Assembly (NCBI GenBank): GCA_964658305.1
Contig: OZ210885.1
Coordinates: 8,928,001-8,992,000 of the forward strand
Direction: 5' to 3'
Source: Leptogorgia sarmentosa
Lineage: Eukaryota
DNA: 64,000 bases
Shown: piece by piece, positions 5,393 through 45,339 of the stretch
Layout: each line of letters begins with the position of its first letter
How positions within the stretch are numbered: position 1 is the stretch's first letter
Notes under the pieces: generated by a model
What the model saw: only the letters and a program-made list of their open reading frames with translations
What the model was told of the DNA's origin: nothing
Databases searched by the model: none
Translations under genes and position numbers: made by a program

Positions 5393-5436
<44 letters not shown>

Positions 5437-6295: not shown

Positions 6296-6376
6296 GTGGT
6301 CGTGGCCGAGTGGTTAAGGCGACAGACTTGAAATCTGTTGGGAAATTCCGCACAGGTTCAAAACCTGCCGACTACG
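6296..6376 (+). tRNA. tRNA-Ser(TGA), variant
   Basis: GTGGTCGTGGCCGAGTGGTTAAGGCG ACAGA CTTGAAA TCTGT, long variable arm, GGTTCAAAACC...CGACTACG. Confidence 0.78.
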
Positions 6377-6718
6377 GAAAGGCAAATTTTCAGAATGTAT
6401 TTGGCAAAATTTTGGTGTTATAGCATGAAATAAGCAGAAAAAAGAGAAAAGTTATGAAAAGAAGTTGTCCAAGAAACTTTTTTAAAGCAAAGTTTTCAAC
6501 TTCTAACTCGAGTCCGAACGACGAGTGCTAATTTGAGTTTTCTGGAAAACACACGAGTATATGTTATTAAACAGTAATATCCATTATTTTTATATTTCTT
6601 TTCGGAAATTTTTCAGTGTTCAGACGTCGTGACGGTAAATGTAACCGAATTTTTTGCGCGGGGTTTTCTAAGGACTTACGAAAGCTTTCAAAAAAGAGAA
6701 CAGTTGGTTAATTAACTG

Positions 6719-10046: not shown

Positions 10047-10372
10047 TCAACCTTTTGGTTGGAGTTCTTTTGAATGCGAGGATAACTTATTAAGACGAAG
10101 GAAGCAGACCCGACCTCCTGCCAGGCCAACACAAACCATTCCATTTGAGCCACATGCAATGGCTAAAACATTCCGGTCGAAATGAAACTCTTCAACACAC
10201 TCTCCATTTTGTAGGTTCCACAGTTTCAGCGTCTTGTCATAATCCGAGCACGACAAAAGAAATTCACTTCCGGCCGCTAATGCCAACGCTCTGATACGTT
10301 CAGCATTTTGAATTGGAAATCTATAGAGAACCTTTCCAGTTATGAAGTCCTTAATCGCCAAAGAACCATGAC
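10047..10372 (-). CDS. Coding exon 15 (terminal): last WD40 blades and stop codon
   Basis: LLSCSDYDKTLKLWNL...VCVGLAGGRVCFLRL; TGA at 10049-10047; AATAAA on the minus strand at 9920-9915. Confidence 0.88.
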
Positions 10373-13300
10373 CTAAAAATGTGATTTAAATTTTGTTAAT
10401 CTGTTAAAGCAATGTTACGCGAGGCAATTTTTGTGATCAATTTTGGATTGATAGCTATGTTTTATATTTATAGTGGCTGTTACGAACGAAAGATTTTGAT
10501 CGCAGTGCATATACCCAAGGCAATTTCGATACAACGTGAGACGTATTTTAATTTGGATTTACAGCCATTTTATCGAACCGGCATTTCACGTGAATCAATT
10601 TTTGCCATCACTTGCGAGCTGATCTTGGATTGTTAGCCGTGTTATCTAACGGCTACGTTATACAGAATAATTATTTTGCCAATATTTGTGACGCAATTTT
10701 AGCTTCATAGTGATTTATGTTGCAGGTATGTTACTAAAAGGAATTTGTCGCAACTGGCAACTTAATTTCGAATACCGAGCCGCCTCTTCAACAGTCGCTT
10801 TTATGCTTTTAATAGAAATTATTAATAGGTGCGGGCGTAAATTTAGGGATGCGCGGGTAGTTTTGACACTCCAACTTTCCCGCAATATCAAAACTGCCCG
10901 CGCATCTCAGAATTTGCGCCCGCAAATTCCTAATTTCTATTAAAAGCATAAAGCGCCTGTGGAGGAGGTAGGGCCCAGAGGTCACGTTATTTAAGTTGCT
11001 GTCTCAGAAATTGTTCACATAGACTGCTACACAACTCGCTTTTCACAATTCTTTACATAACATACTAATTAGGAAATGTTAGCAGTGCAAACAGGGACTT
11101 ATCTGCACAAATTTCCAGCGAGTCTCATCTAAATAACATCGCTTTAAATCTGATATTAGGTAACATGCAGCTAAACTTTTCACTTTTCACATGTGAAATA
11201 AGGATTTCATATGTAATTGAATTGCACATATGAAAATTTCACATGTGATTTTAAGATTTCACATCTGATTTAATTTCACATATAACTTTTCACGTGTGAA
11301 ATAAGGATTTCATATGTGATTGAATTGCACATATGAAAATTTCACATGTGATTTTAAGATTTCACATCTGATTTAATTTCACATATAACTTTTCACATGT
11401 GAAATATGGATTTCACATGTGATTGAATTTCACATATGAAAATTTCACATGTGAATTTAAGATTTCACATGTGATTTAATTTTACATATAACTTTTCACG
11501 TGTGAAATAAGGATTTCACACAAAATTTCATTTCACATGTGAAAATTGCCGATTTCACAGGTGAAATTAGCGTTTCACATGTGAAATTAACTGAATCACA
11601 TGTGAAATAAACGTTTCACATGTGAAATTAGCATTTCACATGTGAAATATTATGTGAATTTCCGTAACGGATACACGTTCGTTATATTATATTATTTATA
11701 TGATCCCACTCTCCCGGGATTCAATGAAGCGCAAAATGATTTTGAGGTATTGAAATGAGTCATAATTTATGATTTGAAGAAATGCTAAACTGTTGGTTGC
11801 CTAAGATTTTGTTCTGCTGAAATATCAAACTGGCAAAATGTTGTTGGGCATCAATTTTTGTAAAATATATCTTTTTTGGTGATTTGTGCTAAAAGTGTCC
11901 TAACTTTGGTTGTTTCGTTTCATGAACGTTACTCATTTCAATACCTCAAAATCATTTGACGCTTCATTGAATCCCGGTTAAGAGGGATCGTATAAACAGG
12001 CCCTTAAAGTGCAAGCTTGACTTTGCGTGCTGTACGTCACATGTAGGCTCTATGTTGATCACATTTAAAGTGTGCCGCGCTGTAATCTTAGAGGTCACTG
12101 ATATAATGAATGGCCTCAAGTCTCGCCCGGTGACGCCTTGCATCACAGTAGTAATAAATATTTTAATAACACAACATTGTCACGACCCTTTATTACGCGT
12201 TTGGTGGAGTTATCCTGGGCGTTGTAGATCATGACAACAATTCTATTTTTGCAGCATGTGCGCATGCTAATGTTTTTCTTCTAGTTTTCCAATGTATGAA
12301 TTACGCGAGCACACCTTGTGCAATTGAGATTAGAAAATAAAATAATAACAGTTAAATTATTTACCTAATATAGCCACAAGGTTGCCAGAATTGTTAATCC
12401 TTAAAACTTTCTCAGTGTTGAAAAGATTGGTGATTTGTCGCTCGTCGCCGTTCAAGTTCCACTTTGTGACTTTCTCTCCAGCTGTACCATCAATATATTT
12501 GAGCGGATAAACACAAAAAAGGGAGTTCTGGACCACGCGCATTGTTTCAATTCTCTCCATTATAAGCACATCTTCGTAACTATGCACGACACCGTTTGCA
12601 TTTATCCGATCAATCTGTCAAAATAATCAAACCACTTCTCAATATAACGTCTGTTCCATAGAGAACCTACAATTCAGTGGAATATCTATATATACGTCTT
12701 ATATGTCGTAAAGCAAACTACAAGCTCTTTTATACCTATCTATGGTTGTCATGGGATCCTTAATGCAGCGCCGGATTAACCCGTCATTGGGCCGGGACAA
12801 AAAAAAGTAAAGGACCGTAATTTGGTGAATATGAAAACATGAAACATATATGTAATCAAATTGAAAGTCTTGCCCATTGTATAGTCAAAAACGATAATAT
12901 GCATGAACATAGGGAATAGCATTTTAACGTGAAAGTGGCTTTTACCACAGCGACATTAACTTAAGTGAGTCTAGTATTTCGTGTTCAATGCTAAGCATAA
13001 GCGTACGTGGTAAATTTTTTCAGAGGGGGGCAGAAATTTTATCTTTGCCCGAATTTGAGGGGAGCGAATGTCACGAGGCGCCACCATGGTTGGCGCCGAG
13101 CGAGAAATTGTTGAACTTTTACAACCTCGGATTGCCGGAAACGGCGATTTCAAAGTCCTAAGTCCACTTTCTGGGTACGCTCGTTCAGGTGAACGATTGG
13201 AGGATTGGTGACATTACCTTATTCCTTCAACCTATTCCTCATGTTGCCCGAATTATGCTCAAAATCAGTGCCCGAATTTTCCAATTTGATTTTTTTTGGG

Positions 13301-16300
13301 GCCGCCCGCCTCGTACGCCTATGATGCTAAGTAGGTTGAAGTTTGCAATCTTATCGTTGTCTATAGACGCAGATAATTCTTGAGTAATTTAGGACTCTAG
13401 AATTTCCTGTCTTTCAATCGCCCAATTTTTAATCAAAATTTGTTTTTTCGAAACCAACAGTAACTGGAATTTTTTATACATTGTTTTTCTTGGGCCGGTA
13501 AACAAGCTTTTGAGCTGGGGCCGGGGGCAAATGCCCCCATTGCCCCCTACATAATCCGGCACAGCCTTAAGGGATCACTCTAATTACTATATTTTTTTGT
13601 TCTTTTCATAATTATTATAATTAGTCCTATTATACCTATAAACAAAATGCTATTAATATTCTATTCTATTCTGTTCTTAACTACGTCTTTCCATTAAATA
13701 TTTTCCCCACAAAATGATATGAACACCAATCCAGTTATAAATGCTTATTATTACGTATTTTAAATTCGAGAATTCCTTTCGAACTATTTTCTATTATTCT
13801 TGCTTGGTTACGTCAAACAGCTCATAAAGTAGCAAAATGAACAAAAAATCAGCCGTCAGAATCGAAGTTCTTGAATTCATAATATGTATTTAAAATGAAT
13901 GAAGGCAAGAGGTAAATCGTGGAGCGGGATGACACAAGCATCGAGAGGGAGGGGGATGACACAAAACACCAACTGTTTTGGCTGAAAGGATGAATATTGT
14001 GTCGTCCCCTAACGTTTTAACAAACAATTCACCGAGCATTTGCATTTATATTTATCAAGTATAATGTACTTTATGTGCAGGAAACATTGTGTGTAAATCT
14101 AATTGAACTCTTGCGTTCAGCAATTACAATGCATCTATATTTCAGCAGTCACGTTCACTAAATTACAGTTAAATTACTGCAATACGTGTGGAAAATGATT
14201 AATAAATGAACATGAAGGTTAATTCTATTCAAATTGCTGTTTTTGCGTTACGCACATGGTTACGCACATGGTTGAACAATTAAACAGATTTATTTAATTG
14301 ATGTAATTCGCCTGATAATCAATGTCACATGATCAAATACATGTGGGATGTGGACTCTGACAATACTAAATCATTATTGAATGATTTGAGGCATTTTAGA
14401 TTGCCTAGCTACGTTCTTATCCATACAAATAACTGCAAACAATGATGAACAATAGTATAACGTTAAAATTGCGTTAGCGAGTAGCAAAACATGTGAATTT
14501 TCGTTCAAGAAAATGTCTTCTGAGACGCGTTTTTAAATTATTTTTCGCAATATTTTCATGTTTGATCTCTGATTCTACTAAAACAATTAAATCCACTCGC
14601 TCTCGATTTCTACGAGATGATAGTTGATTCGGGCTTCGCCCTCATCAACTCATCACCTCATAGAAATCTCGAGCTCGTAATCTAATTGTTAAATAGAAAT
14701 CTCGAACTCGTAATCTTATTGTTAAATAGAAAACAACCTTTGCGAATAGAATCGAGTAAAACCTCGCCAATTTACGACAGCTTTAGAACTCGGCAAAGTT
14801 ATTTTACTGTTCTGAAAATGTATTTTCTACAAAAAACACATGATGGTGGGAAAAAGAAGTTGTGGTGCCTTCGTATCTCGAAATTTGTTCGGGGTTTGCC
14901 CTGACATGCATTCCGTAGAAAATGTTATTTATCACGACCATTATTAACTTATGTATAATGCATTGCAAGCATTTAGACTTTTGTTCAAGGACGAGATTTA
15001 ATTTAATTTAATTGTTTTAACCTGATCGCTCGATTTCTAGCCCATGTTATTCGCAAATATATATTTTAATAAAAACTGCCTTCGCATACTTTAATTTTAA
15101 AGGTTTCGCCGTCTTATACAAAATAGTATGGAATTTTTTCATATTCATTTTAAAATTATAGCTTTGGGTTATTGCGTCATCGCGGCTCGCACATTTCTGG
15201 TAATGAAAGAAAAATCCAGCAAGAAAAAAACTATTAATTTGGTTGATTTCTTCCTGACATGGTGTGAACAATGGGGATTTATTCCGAATTTGCTTCCCAA
15301 TCTTCAAAAGGAAGATTGGGGCCAAGTTAATTTGCAATAATTCTAGAAACTTTTCATAACGTGTATGTGCATGTGATGTTTTACATCATGAAATTTGAAT
15401 TACAGCTCAACCAACAACAAGTAACACGCCCAAAAATAACATTTGAAAATCTCGTTTGGAAAATGATATACATACCTTTTTGCCAGAAGCAACTATGATA
15501 TCATCCGAGCGGGGCACGAATTCTAACGCGGTAATGGGATCCGAACAAATGTTGTCATGTGACCATATTAACGTCGGCAAGTTTTCTTCAACATTCCAAA
15601 GCTTCACAGACCCACCAATAGACCCCGATGCAAAGCGACGTGAACGATCATGACCTCCTACCTCGCCTTTAACTTGAGAAATAGCATCCTTGTGCGCTGG
15701 GAATTTCAACTGCGATTTATTGTTAAGATGAAACCATAACAGTTCTCCGTCATCACAACCAAGAAATGCATAGTTTGAACCAAGAGCAGTAATGCAGTTT
15801 ACTTTAACTTCTGGTTGACCCAAATTAATGCTGGCCTCGGTATCAATAAAAGTTCTTAGTTCGATCCTGTTTGCCTCGTCAACAAAAACGAAACGGACAT
15901 CATCACTTAATAAGCACACAAAACGTATGGCGACTCCAGATTCGGTCTTTGCGAAGGTTTGAACTATTTTAGAACACTCTATGTCAACCAGTGACAATGT
16001 TCCTGAACTGCTTCCAGACAGAGCAAATTTCCCATTTGATGTGATGTCAATTGCTGTAACTATCGAGTAGTCAGGGTGACCTGAAAGAAGTAAAACGTTT
16101 AAAGTCATTTGAAGTTGTCAAGTATATCAATTAATATTTTGTAAGTTCAGCAAGTCAGTGAATAACACAAATTACCATAAACTTTTACGCCGGGCTCCGC
16201 TTTTTGCGAGTAATACTCAAAGAAATAAACTTATAATTTTGATGGGGGAACAACATATTTTTCGGAAAGATAAGCTTGAAATTCAAATTTCAGGATACTT

Positions 16301-19300
16301 AGACAACAATCGATGAGATCTTTTAGCTTGAACGAATGGCTTTTGAATTGGTTTCATTATCTTGGATGTTTTAGCGATCTATAGCCACTCTGCTTTTTCA
16401 AGTTACCATGTCCATAAAGTCCATTGTGTTATCAGAACAATCGTGTACGTTTAGTATTGAACTGAGGTTTATCGTTCACCAATATGTCCCAAGAGTAAAA
16501 TGCATACTATGCCGTGTTCGGTACCAAAATGTGGAGCGAGAAAGAATTTTTCCCGAGGTGCAGCCTTTTCCTATAGATGTGCCGTGAGTCCGAGACTCTA
16601 TTCATCAGCAAACGCGCTTTGCCAAAAAGCAACGCGTGAAAATTTAAATTCAGAATGGCTAAGACTGCTCACGAGGAGAGATGCGTATTGAAAAAAGTCG
16701 GATGATTTAGATGGTTTCGACAGTTGGACTATGTTTCTCAGTACCAGCTGTTTTTGGCATTTTGATTTTGATGAGAAAACGCTGAGGGAAATCCGGGGGT
16801 ATTGATGAATTCTGAGGACATTGTTCGTACAGCCGCTCGGAAGATAGCGCGGGCTGAAATGTCCGCGAATTCTGGCTATGATGCGGACTAACAATAGCGT
16901 TATATATCAAAATAAGGATATTGTGCTAAAGAAACGGTTATCCAGCAGTAATTCACGCATTTATTTTTCCAAGACAACTGCACGTCAATTGTTAACCGGA
17001 TTGTTTTGCATTCATAAACTTGTTTGAGATGTTTATATTCAATGAAAATAATGTCATGGAATAAGAAATACTTCTTAACATAGGATTGGAGCCAATTTAT
17101 ATAAAATCTGTCCTAATAGTCCATCTTGTCATTATATAAAATCTTTATATACTTGGTTTTGTCGTGAATCATTGCATGCCGAGCAGGTTCAGACAAATAC
17201 ACTCTGTTACACCCAGATCTTTAACAATTGGGACAAATTACATACAATTACGTTTTTTCTTTTTTTTCCAAGATCGCATTGTTTTCAGTAGCAGATCGGC
17301 ATCATGCTGTTTTACGAACAATGCAGTTTTAGGATTAATAAGGTATAAGTTGCGCGATAATGGAAATCGTAGATGGTCAAACTCATCACTGACAGTCGAA
17401 TGGATAATTTATTTTTGACTGGATCCCGCATTTTTAACAGCAGGATAACCCAGGAAATACAATATTGGCGTCAAAAATGACTGGAACTACAGAATTGGGG
17501 CTCGTAGTTGGGGTCCTTTATAGCACTTCCAAACAGTGAGATAACTGAACTAATCTTGATAAGGTCAAAAGTAAATATACATAACATACATTATTATATG
17601 GCAAGTGTTCTGAGCGGTTCGTCTGCTAAAATACAGCGTGCTGATTGGTTCCTGAGCGGTCGGTAACCTGCAGTACGGACCGCTCACGTTTAGCGACGTC
17701 GGTTGTTTATTGAATCAAGCGACAACGAAGACGAAATAAGTTAAAAACATGTTTGAAAATTCTGTTCTTTTTTTGTTTCAACATTTTGTTCTTTTTTTGG
17801 TAGCCAATAACGTTTTAGAGAACAATTTTTAGCGAACTTCTTCAGCTGTTCTTATATTAATTAGCCGTTTACCGGCTTTGTTCATAGTGTTGAATTGTTG
17901 TAAACGAGTTTTGTTTATCTTTTGCGATATAATAAATAGCTTATTGACTGAGTTTGTTCGATCCGTACTGGAGGATACTGCACGGTCTCGTTCTTTTCTC
18001 GACCGTGCAGTATCCTCCAGTACGGACCTCACACTCAGTCAATAACATATATGTATAATGCAAATAAATTAAAAAGGATGACGGGAAAAATTCTTGATCA
18101 GCTAAAAATGCATTGAGATTTACATTCACCGCAGCATCGATGTGCTGCAAATCCTATAGGATTTCTATATATCACAGCAATCTTGTAGTTTTGGTATTCT
18201 TTCTCTTCATGCAACACGACCTAAATAATGCATATCAGCTTGTAGATACTCGCGATGAAACCGTTTTCATTGTATTGTTCGTAATCAGAAAATAGCATGT
18301 GAAGCCATAACAATTTCTAAAATCGAATCCAATAGTAATTTGAATGCACTGTTTTTTTCGGAGAAATATATTGTCAACTAAAACGGATATTTCACAAACA
18401 TAAATTTTGCGTGTATAAAGATGGTACAATACCCTGTAGTCGCATCAATGACTTAAAAGTATTTAGAATATTCCTTCATTTACCCACCTGCATTATGCTC
18501 GACCAAACTATTTGTTGACAGTTTCCCGTGGAAAAACACATTATTCTGAAGCGACCCAAATAATACTATTTTACCGTCGGGTGATATTACTGGTGGGACG
18601 CTCGACCCTTGACGAACAGTCGATACTTGTAGTGAGTCGAGATTGATTTCACAAGTATGCATATCCCGGCTGCATGTGTAAATCATGTTGCGATCGCATG
18701 CTATTTCCACTGTATAGGACGCGGGTAAAATGACTTCTTTCAAAGACGCATCAGGCTTTTGCCAGTCCCAGATGAACACATGGTTATCTTTGCATCCAAT
18801 TATAACTTGCAACCCATCAGAACTAAAGCGAACAATCTCAGGTGTGCCATCGCTATCAATTCCTTTGATCACACTGCCATCAGACAAATTCCACACCTTG
18901 AAAATAAAAGGAAAAGTTTTTCTGTGTGATACGCAAGAAACGCTTTCAACTTGTGACTACATTGATTTTAGCAAAACTAATTATGAATATAATAACTAAC
19001 ACGCACATGAATGACTTTGTAAATAGGTTTAATTAGTTATATTATGCGTGCTACTTAAAGCGATTATAAATCGGAAGTTATGCAGTTTTTAAGGATTGGG
19101 ATAGAGCACAACAAATTAGTTAATACGTTCTAGATTAGGTTTTACGTTTTAATTTCCGAGATATACGTATTAAGAACAGACCTAGAATATGACTGGACAA
19201 AGCTTCGGGAATGCATAAATGAACCAAATGTGCTCATATTGCTGACACCATCTAAAATCCACTGTGGTGCTTTTGAAGTTCCTACAGTTTTAGGTTATTA

Positions 19301-34300: not shown

Positions 34301-37300
34301 AGCTTTGCTTATATTTTGTTGCTGTTGTTGTACATATTCAAGATTAAACCCGCGAACATAGTTTCGATAAGGAGAACTAAGATTCTGCAAGGAAAAATCT
34401 GCAGTACATTTGAGTTGCCCACTCAACAACTCAAATTTCCCTAAGTAGCGTTGAATAAAACATTCTGCTAGAATGTGCCATAGCCAGAACTGAGACCAAC
34501 CGATATATACCATATATCAAGCCATATTACCTACAGTGATGCGAAGCATAATGGGACGAGCCCTGAGGCCATTGGGGTCCAGTGAGCTCCCTGAAATTAT
34601 AGCGCCGTAAATTTCTGATGTAATCAAGATAGGCCTACTGCACCAAGTCAAACATGTACTTTATTAAAACCTTTCTATCTATTTAGTTCATTATCAGCGC
34701 TAAAAACAAGAATTAAAGCTGAAGGCTCGCAAAAAGTTATTTGAAAAGAATCATTTGCACAGCAAAGTTTTGTCAATTAAAATGTTACTGCAACGATTTT
34801 TTCGACCTCATTTTTTTGCGTTAAATAAATACTCAGGTCGAAAGACGAAATTTGGTGTATAGATGACTTTTGTACGTGGACAGGAAGTAGCTAAATTTCG
34901 CCTCCGAACTTCGATATCGGATGCGAACAGAACAGCCGCCATCTTGTCACCTTGTGACGTCACAAGTGTAACACGTTTAGCGAAGCTACTAGTAAATTCT
35001 GTTACGTTAGACCTATACTCTGTGTTTCTCGTGCTTTTTTGGCCGGAAAAAATCTTTTGAAACAAAACTTGAACATAGGCATTTTAAGATAATATATTTT
35101 GCTCATGTCGAGTAACGAGTCTGGCGGAGACCCGCAATCGTGTGAAAGTTCCAGTGAAACTGACCCAGTGTCGGATGGCTCAGTTAACTCGGATTAGTCG
35201 GGTGGCTCGTTAGTTCATGTCACATCGCACTGCTTTACGTACGACGACGAACCTATATATATATATATAGCAGAACCTGGGGAAACGAGTTGTGTTCCAG
35301 AAGATCAAGATGGATTGTTGCCAGCAACTATTGAACAAAGAAGCGACGGTAGAATAACTCTGGAACAGTGGTAAGAAGATTCAAGACTGTGAAGCCTAAT
35401 TAAAATAGCCGACGTATACTAAATTTAAATTTATATTTCATTGCTTTTATTTAATATTCATCTGTAATGATATATTGTTAATTTTGATATCAATATCAAT
35501 ATATTGATAACAGTATAATTACTGTTTCCACATTACCGTTTCCACATTCTCATTTTCAATTATTAGATTTGTAAATACTTAAGCTGTGGCAGAATAAATT
35601 CATTCGATTTGATATGGAAAATTCATAAGAAGTTCATTTACCTTGTCTGTATGCTTAGTATTACAGTAGTTAGGGTTATGAAATTTCATCTACGTTTGCT
35701 TATACGGTATAAACATTCATGTAAATCGTTGCGTTGAAGGTATTTTATTTTGTTTTTCAAACCAGCGCAGGAAGTGCACGAACTACGAGTTGTAGAAGTT
35801 GTTGTTGTCACATCGGGCATGTCGTCACTGAACAAGTCAAAGGATGTATCATGATCAATATTGTGACTTGTCATTGCTATCTCTTCAACTTTTGCTGGAG
35901 AAGACACCAACTTCACTAGCGACAATCTTTTACTCTGGCGAATTACCTAAAATTATACGAATAATTTAAATGTAAAGTGCTTCGCATATTATAAAATTTA
36001 CCATGTGCATGGACGAAGAATGCGCCTTTGCACGCATGATACAATACTCGTGTTATTTACCTGTAATCGTTTTCGCTCTGTGATTTGCTGTTCGGCCGGT
36101 GGTATAATTCCAGCTACATCAATCGTATAGGAACAGCATCTTCTTTCAATCTCCTTTTAATATTTAGCGATTTTGCTAATTCTAGATTCATATCATAGCT
36201 ACGGATCTTCGAAGTGGGCTCAAAAATACCAAGAGGTCGCCGTTGCGTGAAAACCCTGTCTATGTTTACAGACAAATTTCACGCACTTATTCCGTCTCTG
36301 AGCATCTGTTTCTTCATTAGGGAATAGATGCATAGACATTCCTTCAGTTTTGCTATCATTGGCGCAGCTAACTAAGTTAGGACCGCCAGCAACGCAGAGT
36401 TTTCCTCCGCGAGTAGCTTTACGTCTATTAGAAATATACGCCATGTTGAAAATGGGTTACACTTGTGACATCGCACGGCATTAAGATGGTGGTCGAAAAG
36501 TTCGCACGGAAGTAGCCAAAAATCGCAACTTCGAAAGGCCATAAAATCCGTTTGAAAAGAGCAATTTTAATTCTGTTTGCGGTGAACATATTCGGAGAGT
36601 ACAAGTACTTTAAAATATGCCAATAAAAAGGGGTCGAAAAATTCGTTGCAGTAACACTGCGACTGAAGCGACTCAGTCGTAGTGAGAAGTTATTGATTAA
36701 CATACATTGTTTGGGCACTTATAATAATGTAGAATAAACAAAAGGAGGGATATGTGTCTTTTCCAACAAAAAATATCTTGCGCATGAAATTTAAACGCTT
36801 AAAAGTCATTTTGAGTTGAGAAAATGGAAACTTTGTGGAGTTGTGTATTGCTTTTGAAAGTTTCAAGAACACTGGTTGAGTTTAAACCCTCAAAAACGTC
36901 GCACAAACTTACGTTTTTTAGAATAATTAGCTGTTCGCATGCTTAATTTAGGCTTGCATACCTGTCTCCTGGTCTAAGACGCTGATTGAACCACCCACTA
37001 AACCACAAATGGCCAGAGTACAGCCTGCAGCATTGGTCGTGGCTAATGAGATTACGGGCATATCAAACATCTTTCGCGATATCTCAGAGCCTCCGAGATC
37101 CAGACACGAAGATTCCGGTAAAAGATAGCAGGTCTTCGTGCCTGTTTCACGGAGTTGCTCTGATATCTTCTGTATCCACGGATACTCTTGGTACGATAGC
37201 AGTCTGCCTGGAAAATAAATATACACAACAGTGTCATGAAATATCCTCGCAAAATCATAAAATTAGGCCTACATATTATCGTTCTTGCCTTTGCAACTTA

Positions 37301-40300
37301 TTTTTAACATGGATAACTTTTTGTTTAACTTTTTGAAAAAAGTAAAACTGAAATAAAAAATTACGGGGTATAAGAAAGGCCAAGAAAGAATATTCCATAG
37401 CAAGCTGAAGCATACAATCCTGGACAAAAGTTGTTGTAAATCCAACTCTTTCCTCCAGAATTCAATGTTGCCACGTGAAATGGCAACGAAACATTGCAGG
37501 GCTTTAGCAAACACGACGCGAAGTGAGCGGGGATGTGAAAATGGCGCGGCCGCCATGGGAGATGTTTTACTTCCGGTTGAGTCCAGGACGTCGCACATGT
37601 TCCGTTGAGGACGGCATCTGGGCTGTTTTCACCTCCTCTCCAGAACGTCACATATGAATGCTTGTTTTCAAACATATTTCCCTTGCTAGTTCTGAATTTT
37701 ATTTTGATTGACAAACGTACGCCTGAATAACTCAACGGGTTTTAGCTGCCTTAATTCTTAGCAAACATTTTAATCGCCATAATAAAATGATCAAAATATA
37801 TAGGTACGTTGGTTCAATGTTACTCGTTTTTTACCAAATCCCACATTTTAGAATACAAAAGTTGGATGAAAACAACCCGACGTTAAAATGAACAAGTAAA
37901 AATAGAAATAAGATAAATTTGCACCATTTGAACATAAGAAAACAGAATTCATTTTATTTGCCCTAAAAAACTGTCTATTGATACATATTCAAACACATGA
38001 GGGAAAAAAATGGCAACATTGAAATCACTTTTAAATATCGTTAAATTGCATCCAGTTGGACCTAAATATGGATAATGATATCGAACAGTTGTACTGAACG
38101 GAAAATGAAGTATTTATCTTGCAAAAATTACTTGCAGATTTGCGATTTCAAAACCGCGAAAAGACCGATAAAAGTGTCTTTTCCAAAGAAACTCATTAAG
38201 TGTTACTCAAAAGTCTTCAGAAAAATCTTCTTGCTTGCTTTTTGCCTAGTTTATGACTAATTTAAAAATAGGCACGCACGATGCGTGCATGCGTCTACGT
38301 TGATGTCTTCCATTTGAAACTCGCCGTATGCTCAGTATAATACAAACCCGAAAATATAATGTGACGCATTTGAACTTCGTAGCTTTGAACTTCGTTTTAA
38401 CACGATTCTAGTAAGATTCGATGTTTTGTGTGTGGACGCCTGTTAATTTGAATTTGTTTCGAAAATGGAATGTTAAAAATGTCACAGTTAATCCACAACA
38501 CAATAAATTATTTCAATGTCTTTCAAACAATAACAATAGAGGTGTGAGTAGAACGCGCTTTGTCAAAACGCTACACTAAATTTTGTTTTAAAACCCTTGT
38601 ATCGCATCAACAACCATGAAAAGAAAATACTTCCGATTCCTCAACACACAGTAGTGACAGTACATGAAAACCCCGTTTAGAAATCGCTTTACAAAGCTTG
38701 GAAATTAGACCTTCGAACGAACAACGTTAGAACAACGCACACGGCACACTTGCGATTTGCGAAACACGCCACAGTAAATCGCATACGTCACGAGTTAATT
38801 TGCTGAAAGTTCGATACATCAACGGTAAAGATAACAACGTTTGAGTGTTAGTGTTTACCTTGAGAGCTCGTGACGTCAAAATACGTCATGTTCGTGGTAC
38901 AAACACAGCCTGCCTGCCTGCCAGAAATTTTACGCTTACATAGCCTCAACGTTGTTTAGCAACGTAGACGCAAAAAGACATAAACTACGCTTGATCCCAA
39001 CCCAGATCCTAAACCCGAAAAAGAAAAGTCGGGAAAATATTGGGAAAAAAGTTTTAACTCCAAATCGCTATAGCACGAATAAGCGTCGAACCGAAGCCTG
39101 AACTATGCAACTGCGACAGACGCATCGCGCGCCTAACCGTCTGAGCAAATTTCGAGCTCGCTGAAATTCTTCGAAAACAAAACTATTTATATAGTGGAAA
39201 TGTATTATGTAACATTTCAAATGTGAGGGGGAAGGTATCGACCGTTTTGGAAGGCAAAGACCGTTTACGAAAAGGAAATAACCAGCGGCGTACTATAACA
39301 TTGATTTTGGGAGGTGGGATTTACAACGTTTTTGTTCAAGATTGAACCTTGGAGAAACGTCGTTGTAACACCAAAGCTCCCCCACCCCCGAATTCAATGT
39401 TGCCACGTGAAATCTCCCACCTTGATTTTGGGGCTGTTACAAAAATTTTCCCCACGACTGTGGCATAATGATAATGCAAAGGTAAACTAAACTATAGGAA
39501 AACTGGATAAAATAAAGTTCATTGTTTTATTACCTAGCAGTTGTGGACAGATTGAATCAGCATTCTTCTCGATAACGGGGAAAGATAACATTAATGATGA
39601 TTTGAGGAGTTGGGTTTCCTGTGACAGTGTGCCCAAAAAACGAAAATCTGATACAACGGAGGGTAGGTCAACGTGTTTGACTTTTTGTTGAAGCCAGTTT
39701 AAATCGAAGAACAGTTGAAGTAGCTCGCCATGTTGTTCTGAGGAGGAGATGTGATAGGGTAGGAACTTGAAGTAATAGTCTTTTTGCGCGGTAGTTGAAT
39801 TTTCATTCCATTTACCGTTCACGCATTGGCCACGAAGTGTCTCCACAAACAAACGCTGAACACCAGTTAGTGAGCCCGTGACTTTAAGTTTTCTCCGAGC
39901 AAAATCCAGCAGTAAATCATGCACACGGTAGCTTGTCTTCTTATGAAGTTGAGGTCCTGAAAAAAAGATTTTTGGGACGTCAAGCATCAATCAGTTACTG
40001 ACATTGGTGCATTGACAAACGATATCCAACGGGCAGTAGATTTTCGTTTCTCTAAAACTGACTAATAAATAGTAATACAAAGATAAAAACTGTTTTGCAA
40101 CTTGACTTCTGACTTAAAGGACAGTTATTCAATGCACGACTTGCGGTTTAAAGTAATTTTAATGTGAGGATTTACTAAAACATGGCTTTCACATAACTTC
40201 CTTAAATTAAAACTCGCTCGTGTACCTTTTTGAATCATGGATTTTCTTTCAAGAGAATCAAGTATACGTCTTGTTTTGATAGGTTCACACAATGTTCTAC

Positions 40301-43300
40301 CGGCTCCTTCTGTGGACCAAAACAGCTCCAGTACATCTGAAGGTATATTTGTATCTTCTGGAAATATACCAAAATCTAGGAACTTTTCTTGTTCCGATTG
40401 TTCTAAGCGTTCAAAGCTAATATTAATGGCTGTAACGATGTTATCATAAGGATAATTGTCGGTGGCAACCATTGAATGAAGTTCTTCCAAATCAGTAGTA
40501 AATCCATCTAAAATATCTTGCCAAGCCTGTTCCGAACGATTGCCGTTTAAATTTGAACCAACAAGTGAGAGGGCCAGCGGCAGGCCTTTGCACTGTTTTA
40601 ATAGTTCTTCAATAATTTGCTGCATTTTTGGACTAAAGCTAGGCAGTTCATCTTGCTTAATCCCAGCACTTTGAAAAAAGAGCTCTCGAGATTTATCCTG
40701 TTCCATTATATCGAGTTCGTAGACAAAACCTCTTGAACCTCGGACAACATTGACATCTCTGGTAGTTATCAATAACTGACATTTTTCAGACAAGGTATCA
40801 AACACAGCAACGTCGTTAACATTCCAAACATCATCAAGAACTACAAGACATTCCTTATCGCTCTGCAATAGATAGAAAAATATTAGATGTAAGATACCGT
40901 ATGGTCTTTTTGCTGAGTGTCTTCACACTAGACAGCCTGGAAATGACTTCACCGCAGTGCGACTATACCCTTCAGCTTATTAAAACTTTAGAAAGTGTTT
41001 AAGGAACGCGCCACGTACATTATTAACTCCTATATGCAAATCCGATTAAAGATATATTAAATAGTGCTTTTAATTCAAGGGTTACACAGCGGAGCCAAGA
41101 ACCTCGAACAGCCAAGCGAAACAAGGATTGAATACAGGACGTGTCAAAAAAAAGTTTAGTGTAGGAAATATTCCCTAAACTAACGTGCGTTAACGAAATC
41201 TGTGAAAACGTTGAGTTAACCTATGCAGATTAACACCCTCTGGTACATCTCGCACTGAGTTTATTTAAATCTTTTTCCTTTCTTTTTCAGAGTAGGAAAT
41301 GTGTCGATGGAGAGCATTTTAAAAATAACTTGGGCACAAAAACTAAGTTCTTTTCACGAATTTTGAGTCAATCGACTCAAAATATGGAGCATGTTGTACA
41401 AGTTATTGAATTGTTGTGGAATTTGGTGCCCGCAGTGTTGTCACTGCGAGAACTGGATTTTGCGCTGCTTCCTGCGTATACCCATTAATTTAATGCATAA
41501 TTGGATATTCCATTAATTTTCAATGCAAATTCCAAGCTAATTCCCAAAGGTCTTATTTAAGCAAAGAAAATGCGGGAAATACAGTTTTCGGACATCGCGA
41601 GTTCGCCTCAGCGAGTGCGTAAGTTACAAACCTCACCAAATGTGGATAAGTTACTAACCCCTGGACGACCCAGCGGACTCCAAGACAAGTTACGGGTAAA
41701 GTAATACCATATTATTTAAACAACATGTACCTTTTATAATAATCTAAATAATATGGTAATGCTTTAACCTTAAGCCTATTTTCCACTACATTATTTCGCG
41801 AAAAAAATTGACAAGAATAATTGTGATGTTTTATATTCATTCGCCACTGAAGAAATTTGTTACACTTCTGTAGATGTTGAAAATGTTCACTGTTGGCGCG
41901 AAAGAACGAGGAATTACTGAGATTTGTCGGTGGCAAAATTATTCGCCAGCGGCGGTCAAATACGTGAGTGGAAAACGGGCTTTACGCGAGCTTGTCCAGA
42001 AAGAATAAAAATAAGGCTTGTTTGAAATTGGCTTTGAACCCAAAAAATTCGAATGCATACATACTGTGTTCTTTTTAATCCAGTCTTGTGCTTCACGGAT
42101 AACACTGAAAGGTTTTGCTCCACCAAGAACTTTTACTAAGATGTTAATCAGTGCTAAACAGTCAGGAGTTTCACCAACATCAAGCCATATCACTTGACGT
42201 GAAACTGAAACTTCCCATGCGACAGCCAGAGCTAAGATGGTCTTACCCAGACCCCCCATACCACGGATACCAACGACGTCACCGCTGCGACTTCCCACCA
42301 CACCAACTTTACTATTTCCCTCCGTAAGTAACTTCAATATCTCGTTCACTTCTGATGGTCTTCTCACCATGTCACGAGGTAGACTGCGTAAACCATACCA
42401 ATCTAAGATAGGAAATAAACGAGTTATGCTGGATGAGTACAACTGAACCTAAAAAATTTATAGTAAATGCATGGAGATTATTCATTCAAAAGATATCTCT
42501 TTACAAGTTTTTACCAGAACTGCAAAACAAAACGTTGTCATGTATTTAACATCGATTTTGGTAAAATATATCTTTCATGGTGATTAGTACAAGAAGTGTC
42601 CTAACTTTGGTTTTTCATTTCATGAACATGACTCATTCTAATACCTCAATGATGGAAATTAACCTCAAATACCTTTGATGGATGGAAATTGCTGAAAACA
42701 TAAGGGTACACTAGAACACATCGCATAGTACAATTGCGCTCTCTCTGTTCCATCAGTTCTCATAATTTGTATATTTGAGCTCTGAATTCGAGATCACATG
42801 ACAATAAAAATAAACGAATTCGGTATTTTGACATAAATGGAAAAATGAAACTTAAATATCTGACATTGTCATTTAAGCACTCTCGTTGCAGTTGAGCTGG
42901 GTTGGCTCTTCACCAGCTTTTTTATTTGGTTGATCACTGATACCGCAGTAATTAGGGAGTTATAGAAAGATTTTAGGAAATCTTCTTAGCTGTCAATTTC
43001 GGCATTTTGTTTATTTTTGTCCATCCAAAACTGGCGAATAGACCCAGTCCTCTGCTCGAATCGGAAATGGCTAATTATAATACCTTTATTTTCGGCAATC
43101 TCTAAATATTCATGTTTTTGTTCACTATGACACATCGCCCTGATTTTTTCCTCAAGGGCACCAAGTTTCTCTTCAACATTGCAGCGTAGTTCACGTAACT
43201 CTAGACCAATGTTCGACTCTATATTATCAAGCTTTGTTGTCACTCCGGTCATCTGCAGAGATATAAGATTCCTACAGTTACGCTCTGAAACGAATAGCAT

Positions 43301-45339
43301 AATAGCACAAATATCCTGCGCCATGATCGAAAGGCCAGCTAGTAAGCAATTATAGACGACAAATGGCCGCGCGGTAAGGCGAGATAAACGGAGCTTGTAA
43401 AAACAAAAATAGAAATTCATCAAACCTTCGTGTCTGTTTCAAGATGCCAACTTTCAATACATCTGCGAAGTTCTGACAAGCTTTCTTTAAATAATTTTGA
43501 GTATCGTCCGTCAACAAAAACGTTTGAAACTAGCAATAAAGAATGAATGTCAGCTAATGAAACAAATAGAGATTAGATTGGTCGAGATATGTATTATACG
43601 TCAGCAATTAAAGCAGCTGTGTCACGGTCTGCGCATCTGTTCTGCGCATAATATGTTAACCTCGTAAAATTTCAGAAACTGCCAGGAAATACTTTATGTG
43701 TCATGGTGCCGTCAGTGAACACAGAGATAATGTATATGAATTTATTTTATACTTTAAAACTTTTTGGATTGTTCAACTAATTGAAAACGTTGACAAAACT
43801 TAAATAAAAAGTTTGCGACACAGGTTTGTCAGTCATAGTCCAAAATGTTTCCGTCCGAAAACACGTTTTTGCACCCATGACCGATACAGACCAAGAATTC
43901 GAACAAGAAAAATCCATGCCTATAATCACTGAAGGAAAATGATGGACTATACCAAATGTTTCAAAAGTAAATAACTGAAAATTTGATGTGTCAAGTTTAT
44001 ACATTTTAATGTTTTATTTACACGTTTCTTATTAAAACACTTGCACTGTGATTTTAACAAGCAAAGCTAGCCAGAGCTTATAAATATATAAATTGAGAAC
44101 AAATCTATATAATAGCAATATTTTGAACCTTATAAATTCGGAAGATCAAAATGTCTTAAAAATCATGCTGGGAAAAGAAGTAACTAAGATCTTCAAGTAC
44201 CGATTTAGTTTTGTTTTTAAATGGCATGAACTGACTTTTAACGACCAAAAGCACATAATACTTAACAACAGTAAGAATACAGGAATAATGAATTATCTTT
44301 TGTGTGTTCCTCACTATTACTGTACGTACAACAGTTTTTTTTTTTGGGGGGGGGGGTTAATAAATACTTCATCATGTATTTCTTATCCTTAAAATGTTGG
44401 CGCCAGAAGAGGGCGTGTTACGAAATTTAATGATATTTTCATTCTTTCACTTATTTCATACAATTATTGTTATTGCGCATTGGTTTACATTCTCCGATTT
44501 TCAGTTTTTGACTTCAAAAGCAAATGAAGCAATTTCTCGTGTATTCGTAACAATTAGCATACAGTCATTAAACTTTAGCAAAATATAGCTAACAGTAAAC
44601 GCTAAAGAAAGACATTGCCAACACTGCTGTTGTGAACACAATCACAACTTATCAATCAGAAACACAATAAATGGTGACATTCCCAAGCGGGAAGCTGCAG
44701 CATCACACCTTCGAACGATACGATACAACTTGAATCATTACCTTTGTTTTTCCAATCCTCAAGATCATCACACACCTCTTTTTCAGCCGCAGTTGTTAAA
44801 TTGATATTTTTCACCAACCATTGCAGGTGTTGAATCGCGTCATTGAACAAAGCATTGGTCCATTTGGGAAAGTTACAATGGGCCCATTCGTTTCTCACGT
44901 TTGACCTTACATTCTTTGCGTACACTGAGGCACCAGATGTTATGAATGGATCTGCTTCACACATGATAGTCAGTAAAGCAGAAAGATCCATTGTATCGTC
45001 AAAACCTGTAAACTTTGCCATGAAGGGTTGAACGAACAGCTTTGCCAAAGACAGAGCATCTTTCACCGCGTAGTCATATGCACGGGGAGATTTATGCACA
45101 TCATTACCGTTGATGTTTTTATATTGTAAGGAAAAGGTTGATGGCGGAAGTGTTTTCTTATACTTTCCAGAAGTTTGTCTGTCAATTTCATCAGGTGGTT
45201 TACATAAGTCTTGATACCAGCTCTTCAATTCTGCATCGACAACTTTCCTCAAGGTGGGAGTGACAACTTTGGTAAGGCAAATACCAATCACAACCCATCT
45301 GGATTCTTCATCTGTTGTGTAACTGGCACTGGTTGCCAT
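10047..45339 (-). CDS. HEPN-domain / NB-ARC / WD40 STAND protein (Apaf-1-like architecture with N-terminal HEPN instead of CARD), 15 coding exons, about 1700 aa
   Basis: Manually joined exons 45339-44742, 43338-43084, 42402-42065, 40862-40226, 39956-39534, 37207-36962, 32784-32566, 28628-28419, 25674-25431, 24622-24390, 21870-21761, 18896-18488, 16080-15476, 12614-12365, 10372-10047. All junctions are GT-AG, phases are consistent, total 5103 nt ending in TGA. Motifs: RNEWAH, Walker A GMGGLGKT, Walker B LVVLDDVW, LLITTRD, CKGLPLAL, FGIFPED, VHDLL, many GH...W[DKN] WD40 repeats. Confidence 0.9.
10783..10970. repeat. Foldback/MITE-like inverted repeat
   Basis: Arms of about 80 bp, e.g. TTTATGCTTTTAATAGAAATTA...TAATTTCTATTAAAAGCATAAA. 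Confidence 0.65.
11176..11670. repeat. 103-bp tandem repeat built from TTTCACATGTGAAA palindromes
   Basis: Unit starts at 11184, 11287, 11390 and 11493, followed by shorter CACATGTG repeats. Confidence 0.85.
11714..11977. mobile_element. MITE with TIRs of about 47 bp
   Basis: CCGGGATTCAATGAAGCG...GAGGTATTGAAATGAGT and its inverse; partial copy near 42560-42650. Confidence 0.7.
12365..12614 (-). CDS. Coding exon 14: divergent beta-propeller segment
   Basis: gacag|ATT acceptor, TAG|gtaaat donor; phase fits both neighbours; VTKWNLN. Confidence 0.75.
12766..13564. mobile_element. hAT-like MITE hosting a nested MITE
   Basis: TIR CAGCGCCGGATTA / TAATCCGGCACAG; 8-bp TSD CCTTAATG / CCTTAAGG. Confidence 0.65.
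12996..13323. mobile_element. hAT-like MITE (nested)
   Basis: TIR CATA(A/G)GCGTACG; perfect 8-bp TSD ATGCTAAG. Confidence 0.8.
14473..14697. mobile_element. Hairpin element family B, partial reversed copy
   Basis: Reverse complement matches about 59850-60065. Confidence 0.75.
15476..16080 (-). CDS. Coding exon 13: WD40 repeats
   Basis: GHPDYSIVTAIDITSNGKFALSGS...FPAHKDAI...FASGSIGGSVKLWNV; GT-AG. Confidence 0.9.
17585..18050. mobile_element. Hairpin-ended element related to family A
   Basis: Palindrome at 17941-18044 containing CCAGTACGGACC; ends AATAACATATA like family A; ATTGG motif at the other end. Confidence 0.7.
18488..18896 (-). CDS. Coding exon 12: WD40 repeats
   Basis: VWNLSDG...VRFSSDGLQVIIGCKDNHVFIWDW...VISPDGKIV; GT-AG. 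Confidence 0.88.
21761..21870 (-). CDS. Coding exon 11: short WD40 exon (absent from the ORF track)
   Basis: GDLEWAKHVAVSADDRYVVSLSKDRNIFKASTKSSIK. It bridges phase 1 to phase 0 exactly; aatag|GT acceptor, AAG|gtatgg donor. Confidence 0.82.
23254..23717. mobile_element. hAT-like MITE
   Basis: Perfect TIR CATGGGCGTACGGGC; perfect 8-bp TSD GAGAGTCC. It sits between inverted repeats of about 85 bp at 22951-23036 and 23868-23953. Confidence 0.88.
24390..24622 (-). CDS. Coding exon 10: WD40 repeats
   Basis: LTASLDQSIRVWNL...DHSEDV...SKDGTFKVWNL; GT-AG. Confidence 0.9.
25431..25674 (-). CDS. Coding exon 9: WD40 repeats
   Basis: LVSGSDDGTIKIWDL...LKGHESDV...VRLWC...EGHTECI; GT-AG. Confidence 0.92.
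27553..28320. mobile_element. Hairpin-ended element family A, opposite orientation
   Basis: Reverse complement aligns along the whole length with 170-935. Confidence 0.8.
28419..28628 (-). CDS. Coding exon 8: WD40 repeats
   Basis: DETIKLWKADTLNFEASLVGHTDDVTCV; ttgtag|GG acceptor, G|gtatgc donor. Confidence 0.88.
28670..29180. mobile_element. Hairpin-ended element, family E
   Basis: Palindrome of about 190 bp at 28983-29172 with tip CTCGGCTACGCCTCG; arm motif GTGCATTATAACAGC repeated next to GATTGG at the other end; ATAAT at both borders. Confidence 0.75.
29262..30166. mobile_element. hAT-like MITE
   Basis: TIR CAGTGCTTCCATTT; perfect 8-bp TSD GTTGCTGG; subterminal TTTCCTTCAAA repeats. Confidence 0.88.
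32566..32784 (-). CDS. Coding exon 7: WD40 repeats
   Basis: LQGHSVRVTCLAVSQSGTILASGSVDRSTILWK; GT-AG. Confidence 0.9.
32910..33113. mobile_element. Short element with subterminal inverted repeat, (TGACTACA)n microsatellite and 3' palindrome (HINE/Helentron-like layout)
   Basis: TAGTGCAAAGTTTC ... TGACTACA repeats ... TGCAAAGTTTCTTTGAAACTTTGCACTA. Confidence 0.55.
34781..36658. mobile_element. Decayed Kolobok-like DNA transposon with a THAP remnant (minus) and a convergent KolX-like remnant (plus)
   Basis: TIR TGTTACTGCAACGA.TTTTTCGACC; TTAA on the left only. THAP-like 'CVAGGPNLVSCAND...MHLFPNE...RRNKCVKFV...AHF' at 36444 to about 36205. Broken acidic ORF 35105-35370 ending 'DGLLPATIEQRSDGRITLEQW|gtaag'. 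Confidence 0.6.
36962..37207 (-). CDS. Coding exon 6: end of helical domain and start of WD40 region
   Basis: G|RLLSY continues the QLLGRL motif; phase 1-1 GT-AG. Confidence 0.85.
39534..39956 (-). CDS. Coding exon 5: MHD-like motif and APAF-1-type helical domain
   Basis: YRVHDLLLDF, YYFKFLPYHI, LFFDLNWLQQKV, ICPQLLG; phase 1-1. Confidence 0.9.
40226..40862 (-). CDS. Coding exon 4: NB-ARC Walker B, GLPL and winged-helix part
   Basis: CLVVLDDVW, LLITTRD, CKGLPLALSLVG, FLDFGIFPED; ag/gt boundaries. Confidence 0.93.
42065..42402 (-). CDS. Coding exon 3: NB-ARC N-terminal part with P-loop
   Basis: VVGIRGMGGLGKTILA, VIWLDVG; ag/gt boundaries. Confidence 0.92.
43084..43338 (-). CDS. Coding exon 2: helical/coiled-coil linker
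   Basis: tag|CTGG acceptor, AAAG|gtatta donor, phase 1-1. Heptad-like 'LDNIESNIGLELRELRCNVEEKLGALEEKI'. Confidence 0.75.
44742..45339 (-). CDS. Coding exon 1: predicted HEPN (DZIP3/Swt1/DUF4559-like) RNase domain
   Basis: ATG in context ATCATGG, splice acceptor 11 nt upstream (45351-45352). Helical domain with 'DLSALLTIM...VRSNVRNEWAHC'; RxxxxH at 44895-44878. Donor AAAG|gtaatg. Confidence 0.85.

What the first reader, a model, noticed from the sequence alone, without database searches (positions are those of the whole stretch)
10047..45339. Apoptosome-like receptor with a HEPN RNase in place of the CARD
Seen: one intact 1700-aa spliced reading frame. It has a helical N-terminal domain carrying RNEWAH (R149-H154), a coiled-coil linker, a complete NB-ARC (GMGGLGKT, LDDVW, TTR, GLPL, VHD), an APAF-1-type helical domain and a long WD40 array. 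Known: Apaf-1 is CARD-NB-ARC-WD40 and oligomerises when ligand binds the WD40s. HEPN RNases use RxxxxH and need dimerisation to form the active site (RNase L/IRE1 KEN, Cas13, Csm6, PrrC). Inference: ligand sensing would oligomerise the protein and dimerise the HEPN domains, giving a caspase-independent RNA-cleaving immune or cell-death effector. This parallels bacterial STAND-nuclease (Avs-type) defence logic. HEPN-like N-termini are reported on invertebrate NLR-type proteins, so novelty lies mainly in the Apaf-1-type WD40 scaffold and the untested activity.
Basis: partly seen in the sequence, partly recalled or inferred. Interest (0 to 1): 0.88.

Follow-up and report, generated by a model that had tools for sequence, protein, structure and literature searches.

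The report
Soft-coral apoptosome-like receptor with RNase head
An intact, spliced gene, likely from a soft coral, encodes an Apaf-1-like sensor that carries a predicted RNA-cutting (HEPN-type) domain where its closest relatives carry cell-death adaptor domains, so it would likely cut RNA directly when triggered; RNase-headed immune sensors on other scaffolds are already described in corals and bivalves.

Summary
Observation confirmed. Sixteen minus-strand GT-AG exons give one 1706-aa frame: N-terminal helical domain, linker, NB-ARC, APAF-1 helical domain, WD40 array. Contigs of three runs join exons 1-7, and two other proteins share the layout. RNxWAH is conserved (R 138/143, H 138/143).

The domain misses every Pfam cut-off, but its relatives link to CXorf38/DUF4559- and Swt1-like HEPNs. 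Fold searches were inconclusive.

The same domain heads many other immune NTPase scaffolds (26 of 31 long relatives), and its tree conflicts with the NB-ARC tree. It is a mobile effector exon.

Best reading, untested: an oligomerisation-activated RNase effector. HEPN-STAND-repeat receptors in cnidarians and bivalves are in print since 2013, and SAMD9 is an animal STAND nuclease. The Apaf-1-type WD40 scaffold was not found in the papers searched. This scan noted similar designs in mussels and protists, but no look-alike sequence. New variant of a known kind.

The parts
44742..45339 (-). Coding exon 1 (aa 1-199): the whole HEPN-like domain; D118 codon 44988-44986, R149 44895-44893, N150 44892-44890, H154 44880-44878; ends in phase 1
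   Evidence: joint 44742>43529 in X4, X5, X6; AF2 model pLDDT 96.8
43426..43529 (-). Exon 2 (aa 200-234): helical linker
   Evidence: joints on both sides; aligns to P0001
43084..43252 (-). Exon 3 (aa 235-290): amphipathic, likely coiled-coil linker
   Evidence: joints 43426>43252 (X4-X6) and 43084>42402 (X4, X5)
42065..42402 (-). Exon 4 (aa 291-403): NB-ARC, Walker A GMGGLGKT; starts in phase 1
   Evidence: joint 42065>40862
40226..40862 (-). Exon 5 (aa 404-615): Walker B LDDVW, sensor TTR, GLPL, winged helix
   Evidence: Pfam NB-ARC E 1.3e-22; best PDB hit Apaf-1, E 9e-16
39534..39956 (-). Exon 6 (aa 616-756): VHD (MHD-type motif) and APAF-1 helical domain
   Evidence: APAF1_C E 2.3e-11; all 6 PDB hits are Apaf-1; joints
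36962..37207 (-). Exon 7 (aa 757-838): end of helical domain, start of WD40 region
   Evidence: joint 39534>37207
32566..32784 (-). Exon 8 (aa 839-911): WD40
   Evidence: joint to exon 9
28419..28628 (-). Exon 9 (aa 912-981): WD40
25431..25674 (-). Exon 10 (aa 982-1062): WD40
24390..24622 (-). Exon 11 (aa 1063-1140): WD40
21761..21870 (-). Exon 12 (aa 1141-1177): WD40
18488..18896 (-). Exon 13 (aa 1178-1313): WD40
15476..16080 (-). Exon 14 (aa 1314-1515): WD40
12365..12614 (-). Exon 15 (aa 1516-1598): divergent propeller-like region
   Evidence: no Pfam hit; aligns to P0001, E 3e-10
10047..10372 (-). Exon 16 (aa 1599-1706 and stop): WD40

Best explanation
This intact 16-exon gene, likely from an octocoral, encodes an Apaf-1-type NB-ARC-WD40 receptor with an N-terminal predicted HEPN ribonuclease, and it likely works as a self-contained immune effector that would cut RNA when ligand sensing drives it to oligomerise. 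Shown: the gene, the splicing of exon 1 to the NB-ARC exons, intact switch motifs, and family-wide conservation of R149-N150-H154 and D118. Inferred from Apaf-1 and STAND biology: at rest the WD40 propellers fold back on the nucleotide-bound NB-ARC; a ligand (unknown; pathogen protein or nucleic acid more likely than cytochrome c) releases it; nucleotide exchange builds a ring; the roughly 90-aa helical linkers bring HEPN domains of neighbouring subunits together into composite RNxWAH active sites; the resulting RNA cleavage would shut down translation or kill the cell without a caspase adaptor. Inferred history: a phase-1 HEPN exon took the effector slot of a DED/Death-domain-bearing cnidarian Apaf-1 paralogue within octocorals and has been exchanged or captured more than once.
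For: Motif: R149 138/143, N150 135/143, H154 138/143, D118 136/143, full R[NDH]xxxH 130/143 in an alignment of the window domain and 142 homologous segments, against 31% for the modal residue at 158. Family link: 38 of 71 members match HEPN_Swt1 and 22 of 71 match DUF4559 at E<=1 (best 9.7e-7 and 3.9e-9). P0379, 38% identical to the window domain, passes the DUF4559 cut-off, 27.6 vs 27 bits. Atlas top clusters for homologue P0002 score 0.96 and carry HEPN_DZIP3 or DUF4559 in 11-38% of members. AF2 model (pLDDT 96.8) places the motif at the end of helix 137-153, after an insert, as in HEPNs. Context: 26 of 31 long relatives carry an NTPase switch (15 nSTAND3, 4 NB-ARC, 4 NACHT-type, 2 Roc-COR, 1 GIMAP), and one more is a kinase-KEN protein. 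NB-ARC motifs are intact and closest to Apaf-1 in the PDB. HEPN-bearing rows form a 97/98 clade nested among DED/Death-bearing rows. Precedents: oligomerisation-activated HEPN in RAZR (PMC13017515, abstract and passages); SAMD9 tRNase (PMC10246899, search listing).
Against: The window domain passes no Pfam cut-off (best HEPN_Swt1, E 0.14). Foldseek finds nothing at E<=0.001. With the good model, VIA ranks an acyl-CoA dehydrogenase bundle first (Z 8.1, rmsd 2.9, 84 aligned) and the Swt1 C-terminal domain fifth (Z 6.9, rmsd 3.2, 114 of 136), all under the Z of about 13 asked for helical bundles. HHalign to one DZIP3-HEPN sequence puts the motifs in register but scores only E 0.23, against 0.37 for a reversed control. 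Several non-motif residues (L123, L101, N79, W160, F132, N77) are as conserved as R and H. The relative CXorf38 is itself only a predicted RNase (PMC3710099; bioRxiv 10.64898/2026.05.28.728550), and Swt1's HEPN is called inactive (PMC3710099). No ligand, induction or activity data.
Confidence: 0.58

Rival explanations
1. It is an RNase receptor, but the HEPN dimer is pre-formed through the helical linker; ligand and nucleotide exchange switch it on by relieving autoinhibition or changing geometry (RAZR-like), not by creating the dimer.
For: The linker is long and amphipathic, and P0171 has a heptad-repeat expansion there. The A2 profile picks up coiled-coil proteins weakly over that stretch. 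RAZR is dimeric and oligomeric before activation. CXorf38 is modelled as autoinhibited by a downstream helical bundle.
Against: The heptad test was weak (0.44). The linker is the least conserved region (33-40% identity to P0171 and P0001). The domain also sits C-terminal to Roc-COR in 2 relatives.
Confidence: 0.17
2. The domain is HEPN-derived but acts without catalysis, as an RNA-binding or homotypic recruitment module that takes over the adaptor role of the DED/Death domain it replaced.
For: It occupies the adaptor slot. Inactive HEPNs exist, for example Swt1. No member of this subfamily has a shown activity in the papers searched.
Against: Inactive HEPNs typically lose the motif, whereas 130 of 143 keep R-N-x3-H here, across different scaffolds.
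Confidence: 0.15
3. The domain is not a HEPN; RNEWAH is a structural helix cap in an unrelated helical bundle of unknown role.
For: No significant direct profile or fold match for the window protein.
Against: Transitive Pfam matches fall on the motif-bearing half of two HEPN profiles. Atlas neighbours are HEPN clusters. The D-x-S-A-L-L and R-N-x3-H order matches DZIP3-HEPN in register.
Confidence: 0.07

Closest known systems
Apaf-1 (vertebrate CARD-NB-ARC-WD40)
   Same: NB-ARC with intact motifs, APAF-1 helical domain, C-terminal WD40s; best PDB match for exons 5 and 6.
   Different: No CARD. A 199-aa HEPN-like domain and a linker of about 90 aa instead. WD40 region of about 900 aa, in a 1706-aa protein against 1248 aa. 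Orthology not tested.
Cnidarian Apaf-1 paralogues with DED or Death N-termini (Zmasek et al. 2007, PMC2246300, passages read)
   Same: Same NB-ARC clade: 51-64% identity to Dendronephthya and Xenia proteins, 43% to a Nematostella protein. N-terminal swaps to double CARD, DD, DED and TIR are described there.
   Different: The passages describe those N-termini as protein-interaction domains; here the slot holds a predicted enzyme.
CXorf38/DUF4559 and Swt1-like HEPN family (Anantharaman et al. 2013, PMC3710099; sections 6 and 16 and passages read)
   Same: R-N-x3-H motif, upstream conserved Asp, insert within the helical core; CXorf38-type HEPNs fused to NACHT and DEATH in cnidarians and proposed as apoptotic or defensive RNases.
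   Different: Below the Pfam cut-off. The NTPase is NB-ARC, not NACHT. The insert holds no conserved Cys pattern in the conserved-column list, whereas CXorf38 is said to have a Zn ribbon.
DZIP3/hRUL138-HEPN-NACHT receptors of corals and bivalves (PMC8260672, PMC10236652, PMC9646362; passages read)
   Same: HEPN-STAND-repeat layout, lineage expansions, proposed immune RNase role, untested.
   Different: Different HEPN subfamily, missed by Pfam-based surveys; NB-ARC/Apaf-1-type body.
Bacterial RAZR and Avs/STAND effectors; bacterial Apaf-1 homologues with a built-in caspase (PMC13017515; bioRxiv 10.64898/2026.01.04.697583, passages read)
   Same: Sensor-triggered oligomer switching on a fused enzyme; Apaf-1-like propeller sensor with a direct effector in place of the CARD.
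   Different: Bacterial. RAZR has no STAND domain; the Apaf-1-like bacterial effector named is a protease.
SAMD9/9L and RNase L
   Same: Animal infection-activated RNA-cutting effectors (SAMD9 tRNA-Phe nuclease, search listing of PMC10246899; RNase L HEPN/KEN dimer).
   Different: SAMD9's nuclease is not a HEPN (recalled). RNase L has no STAND domain (recalled).

Membership tests
HEPN superfamily | Rx4-6H motif with a polar residue after R | tested here: met
   R149-N150-E-W-A-H154; full motif in 130 of 143 aligned domains
HEPN superfamily | Detectable homology to a described HEPN family | tested here: met
   At family level only: P0379 passes DUF4559 cut-off; 38/71 HEPN_Swt1 and 22/71 DUF4559 at E<=1; Atlas 0.96 clusters
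HEPN superfamily | Four-helix core with an insert, motif at the end of helix 3 | tested here: inconclusive
   Model helices fit; VIA Swt1 C-terminal domain Z 6.9, rmsd 3.2, 114/136; Csm6 Z 5.8, rmsd 4.5, 118 aligned; tied with unrelated bundles
HEPN superfamily | Additional upstream acidic residue | tested here: met
   D118 in 136/143, 31 residues before R149; CXorf38 D134 is 28 before R162. Equivalence inferred from spacing and the register
HEPN superfamily | Composite active site across a dimer, and RNase activity | not testable with these tools
   Needs biochemistry or a solved structure
Pfam HEPN_DZIP3 / HEPN_Swt1 / DUF4559 (as curated families) | Score above the gathering cut-off | tested here: not met
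   Window domain: only HEPN_Swt1, 12.8 bits against 27.5; not filed under these families
AP-ATPase / NB-ARC STAND, Apaf-1/CED-4-like | NB-ARC with Walker A, Walker B, sensor, GxP and MHD-type motifs | tested here: met
AP-ATPase / NB-ARC STAND, Apaf-1/CED-4-like | APAF-1 helical domain followed by WD40 repeats | tested here: met
   APAF1_C E 2.3e-11; 16 WD-like matches, 11 of them at 15 bits or more, with a locally built and iterated profile
Apaf-1 proper | N-terminal CARD | tested here: not met
   No CARD hit in exons 1 and 3; relatives carry DED or Death domains
Apaf-1 proper | Orthology to vertebrate Apaf-1 | not tested
   No vertebrate or CARD-bearing Apaf-1 sequence was available for the tree
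Apaf-1 proper | Cytochrome c-triggered heptamer | not testable with these tools
   Needs experiment
Invertebrate HEPN-NACHT receptors | NACHT NTPase | tested here: not met
   The NTPase is NB-ARC; works like them, not a member

The most novel reading that the evidence does not exclude
Octocorals have built an RNase apoptosome: an Apaf-1-type ring that switches on its own HEPN ribonuclease instead of recruiting caspases. Its head is one exon-encoded member of a large HEPN subfamily that Pfam misses, which cnidarians and molluscs plug into at least eight kinds of immune scaffold and keep exchanging between paralogues.
Probability: 0.55. Interest if true: 0.72.

Novelty: new variant of a known kind. 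Interest (0 to 1): 0.5.

Why it matters
If active, it would be an animal Apaf-1-type receptor that executes by RNA cleavage, linking apoptosome architecture to the sensor-oligomer-nuclease logic of bacterial defence. It offers a clean test, with a one-exon effector and a well-understood switch, of a hypothesis in print since 2013 for which the paper searches here showed no experimental test: that invertebrate HEPN-STAND proteins are RNases. It also shows that Pfam-based counts of coral and bivalve immune receptors miss an effector family: none of 31 long relatives had a HEPN hit at E<=1e-5.

Tried and rejected
No genome is held for this window, so paralogue number is unknown.

No RNA holder was listed by record. 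X4-X6 were treated as transcript-like only because their contigs skip GT-AG introns.

Homodimer prediction of residues 6-199 gave no verdict (score 0.00; alignment not used).

Foldseek on both models found nothing significant. The first, shallow-alignment model (pLDDT 73) ranked the Swt1 domain second (Z 7.8, rmsd 3.4, 112 aligned) and listed several other HEPN chains; I rely on the better model, where the rank is lower.

A PDB sequence search with the family profile gave only coiled coils. PADLOC gave no hit for the window domain; 3 of 71 members hit a CARF-HEPN model weakly. HHalign against single DZIP3-HEPN and KEN sequences was not significant. The heptad test was inconclusive. No upstream 5' UTR exon appeared among the listed joints. 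There is no second copy of the domain in the window.

Rejected: a chance fusion of two neighbouring genes (RNA joints plus P0001 and P0171); a pseudogene (single stop, intact motifs); a CARD-to-HEPN swap as the actual history (DED/Death relatives).

Literature: 0 papers held HEPN + Apaf-1 + cnidarian + NB-ARC, and 0 held HEPN domain + NLR + invertebrate + cell death + RNA cleavage from 2020 on. Searches listed none describing this layout. The library lacks most subscription papers. Supplementary domain tables (for example PMC10236652 Additional files 15-17, PMC8260672 Table S5, PMC3710099 Additional file 1) were not opened and might list it.
Full report
1. Observation. Six-frame translation and Pfam show a multi-exon gene on the minus strand. 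A homologue search with exon 1 returned 18 longer proteins. The best, P0001 (1709 aa, 68% identical over the domain, on a 5604-nt contig), has NB-ARC and WD40 domains; the named hits are octocorals, Dendronephthya and Paramuricea. The organism is therefore likely an octocoral; it was not identified. Using P0001 as a guide I fixed 16 coding exons with 15 GT-AG introns. They give 1706 aa with one terminal stop and 56% identity to P0001 over 1741 columns.

2. Splicing. Six runs hold the DNA; none is on record as RNA. X4-X6 (three samples, one study) give contigs that stop at exon ends and skip introns 1-6 at the modelled sites; intron 8 is skipped in X4 and X5. One X4 contig carries the RNEWAH codons and exon 2 together. 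No listed contig spans from exon 1 to the NB-ARC exons, so that link rests on a chain of joints plus two independent records, P0001 and P0171, which hold the domain, NB-ARC and WD40s in one frame.

3. The N-terminal domain. It is encoded by exon 1 alone. A full-library search found 388 representatives at E<=0.001 and a profile search 407 proteins, with named hits in octocorals, Acropora palmata and the clam Mercenaria. From the 168 proteins then in hand I kept the 142 segments that cover the motif region. With the window domain, R149 is kept in 138 of 143, N150 in 135, W152 in 137, H154 in 138 and D118 in 136; the full R[NDH]xxxH is in 130. The window domain passes no Pfam cut-off. However, 38 of 71 members match HEPN_Swt1 and 22 match DUF4559 (CXorf38) at E<=1. 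The matches examined fall on the motif-bearing half of both profiles, and one relative passes the curated DUF4559 cut-off (nine proteins picked partly for such hits). The Atlas, queried with homologue P0002, returns clusters at 0.93-0.96 in which 11-38% of members carry HEPN_DZIP3 or DUF4559. A confident model (pLDDT 96.8) shows a long first helix, an insert, a helix starting at D118, a helix ending in RNEWAH and two more helices, matching the HEPN layout described in PMC3710099. Structure searches do not settle it: Foldseek has no significant hit, and VIA gives the Swt1 C-terminal domain Z 6.9 over 114 of 136 residues, tied with unrelated bundles. I put HEPN membership at about 0.9 and catalytic activity at about 0.75-0.8; these are my judgements.

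4. A mobile effector. Of 31 relatives longer than 600 aa, 15 carry nSTAND3 (mostly with ankyrins), 4 NB-ARC, 4 a NACHT-type NTPase, 2 Roc-COR and 1 a GIMAP GTPase. One is a kinase-KEN protein, 2 show beta-helix/MYND only, 1 ankyrins only and 1 nothing. None had a HEPN or WD40 hit at E<=1e-5. Among all 401 proteins fetched, 283 carry the domain, 35 are WD-rich and 2 are both. The WD40 scaffold is therefore a rare partner in this sample, which is limited by each search's length range and candidate cap.

5. The scaffold. Exons 5 and 6 match Apaf-1 best among solved structures. A search with the NB-ARC region returned 12 close proteins, P0001 and P0169-P0179. Two carry the HEPN-like head and three begin at or inside the NB-ARC. 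Of the five other N-termini scanned, four match DED (two above cut-off) and one Death; none matches CARD. P0174 and P0175 were labelled Death by likeness to P0173 and not scanned. In the tree, the three HEPN rows group at 97/98 inside a 98/94 clade with the Dendronephthya DED and Xenia Death proteins; a tandem-DED protein and the Nematostella DED protein lie outside. The simplest history is replacement of a death-fold domain within octocorals. Vertebrate Apaf-1 was not in the tree, so orthology is open. The window protein is closest to P0171 in the NB-ARC (77% against 57%) but to P0001 in the HEPN (70% against 60%). AU tests on a 17-row HEPN tree reject window+P0171 (p 0.0006) and all three together (p 0.004). 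I named the groups from the NB-ARC tree but after seeing the HEPN tree, so these p-values are indicative. Exon 1 ends and exon 4 starts in phase 1, which would allow such swaps. The WD40 region spans about aa 790-1700, with 16 profile matches, 11 of them strong; room for a third propeller is an inference from length.

6. Mechanism. Shown: gene integrity, domain order, intact switch motifs, conserved candidate catalytic residues. Inferred: WD40 autoinhibition, ligand-triggered nucleotide exchange, ring formation, pairing of HEPN heads through the helical linker, RNA cleavage and translation shut-off or death. HEPN RNases form composite sites in dimers, and RAZR shows activation by ring assembly. 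The ligand is unknown. PMC11747288 (abstract) reports DNA sensing by Apaf-1-like proteins from lancelet to human, so nucleic acid is a candidate. In Nematostella the dsRNA-induced Apaf-1 is the CARD-bearing one (PMC11251625, passages), which says nothing for this clade.

7. Novelty. PMC3710099 already proposed CXorf38-type HEPNs fused to NACHT and DEATH in cnidarians as apoptotic or defensive RNases. HEPN-NACHT expansions are reported in anthozoans and pearl oyster, N-terminal swaps on Apaf-1 paralogues in PMC2246300, and bacterial Apaf-1 homologues with a built-in protease in a 2026 preprint. PMC8195603 (passages) lists HEPN, STAND and WD40 combinations in oysters. The HEPN-NB-ARC-WD40 Apaf-1-type layout was not found in ten searches (the strictest returned none); supplements were not opened. 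Earlier notes of this scan describe HEPN-STAND-repeat genes in mussels, protists and an unidentified eukaryote; none matched by sequence. Verdict: a real, intact new variant of a known design, with a good experimental handle. Interest 0.5.

Noticed in passing
window 50-6377: Cluster of 14 tRNA genes (Asn x3, Gln x2, Leu x2, Val x2, Pro x2, Glu, Gly, Ser) 3.7 kb beyond the gene's stop codon; no link to the gene shown.
   Followed up: no
window 62598-63488 (+): Reverse transcriptase frame of 297 codons (RVT_1, E 2.5e-11) with a stop just upstream; looks like a 5'-truncated LINE-type element.
   Followed up: partly
window 35689-36456 (-), intron 7: Broken frames that look like a THAP-type element (resemblance recalled; no relevant Pfam hit); one X5 contig covers 36319-36587.
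   Followed up: partly
window 56835-57367 (+): Broken frames resembling a hAT transposase (recalled resemblance; no Pfam hit).
   Followed up: partly
window 11182-11649, last intron: Minisatellite with 20/52/103-bp periods.
   Followed up: no
window 42398 and 32788 (runs X4, X5): Loose ends with unlike but coding-looking sequence at exon starts suggest other NB-ARC-WD40 paralogues in the same runs, with different upstream exons.
   Followed up: no
window 43178 (exon 3) and 40256-40313 (exon 5): An X5 contig has a 9-base in-frame insertion in the linker exon; X4-X6 share a cluster of differences near the end of exon 5.
   Followed up: no
P0128: The same HEPN-like domain fused to a kinase and a KEN (Ribonuc_2-5A) domain: an RNase L/IRE1-like protein with two predicted RNase domains.
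   Followed up: no
P0010, P0022, P0030: P0010 and P0022 carry this domain followed by a DZIP3-type HEPN; P0030 has two matched stretches. Possible intramolecular HEPN pairs.
   Followed up: no
P0378 (Acropora palmata): The domain fused to a P2X7 intracellular-type domain.
   Followed up: no
P0180-P0192: The next-closest NB-ARC-WD40 proteins (26-29% identical to the window region), mostly from JGI and Logan records, mainly carry TIR-like N-termini (by eye and some precomputed PF13676); likely bacterial, not confirmed.
   Followed up: partly
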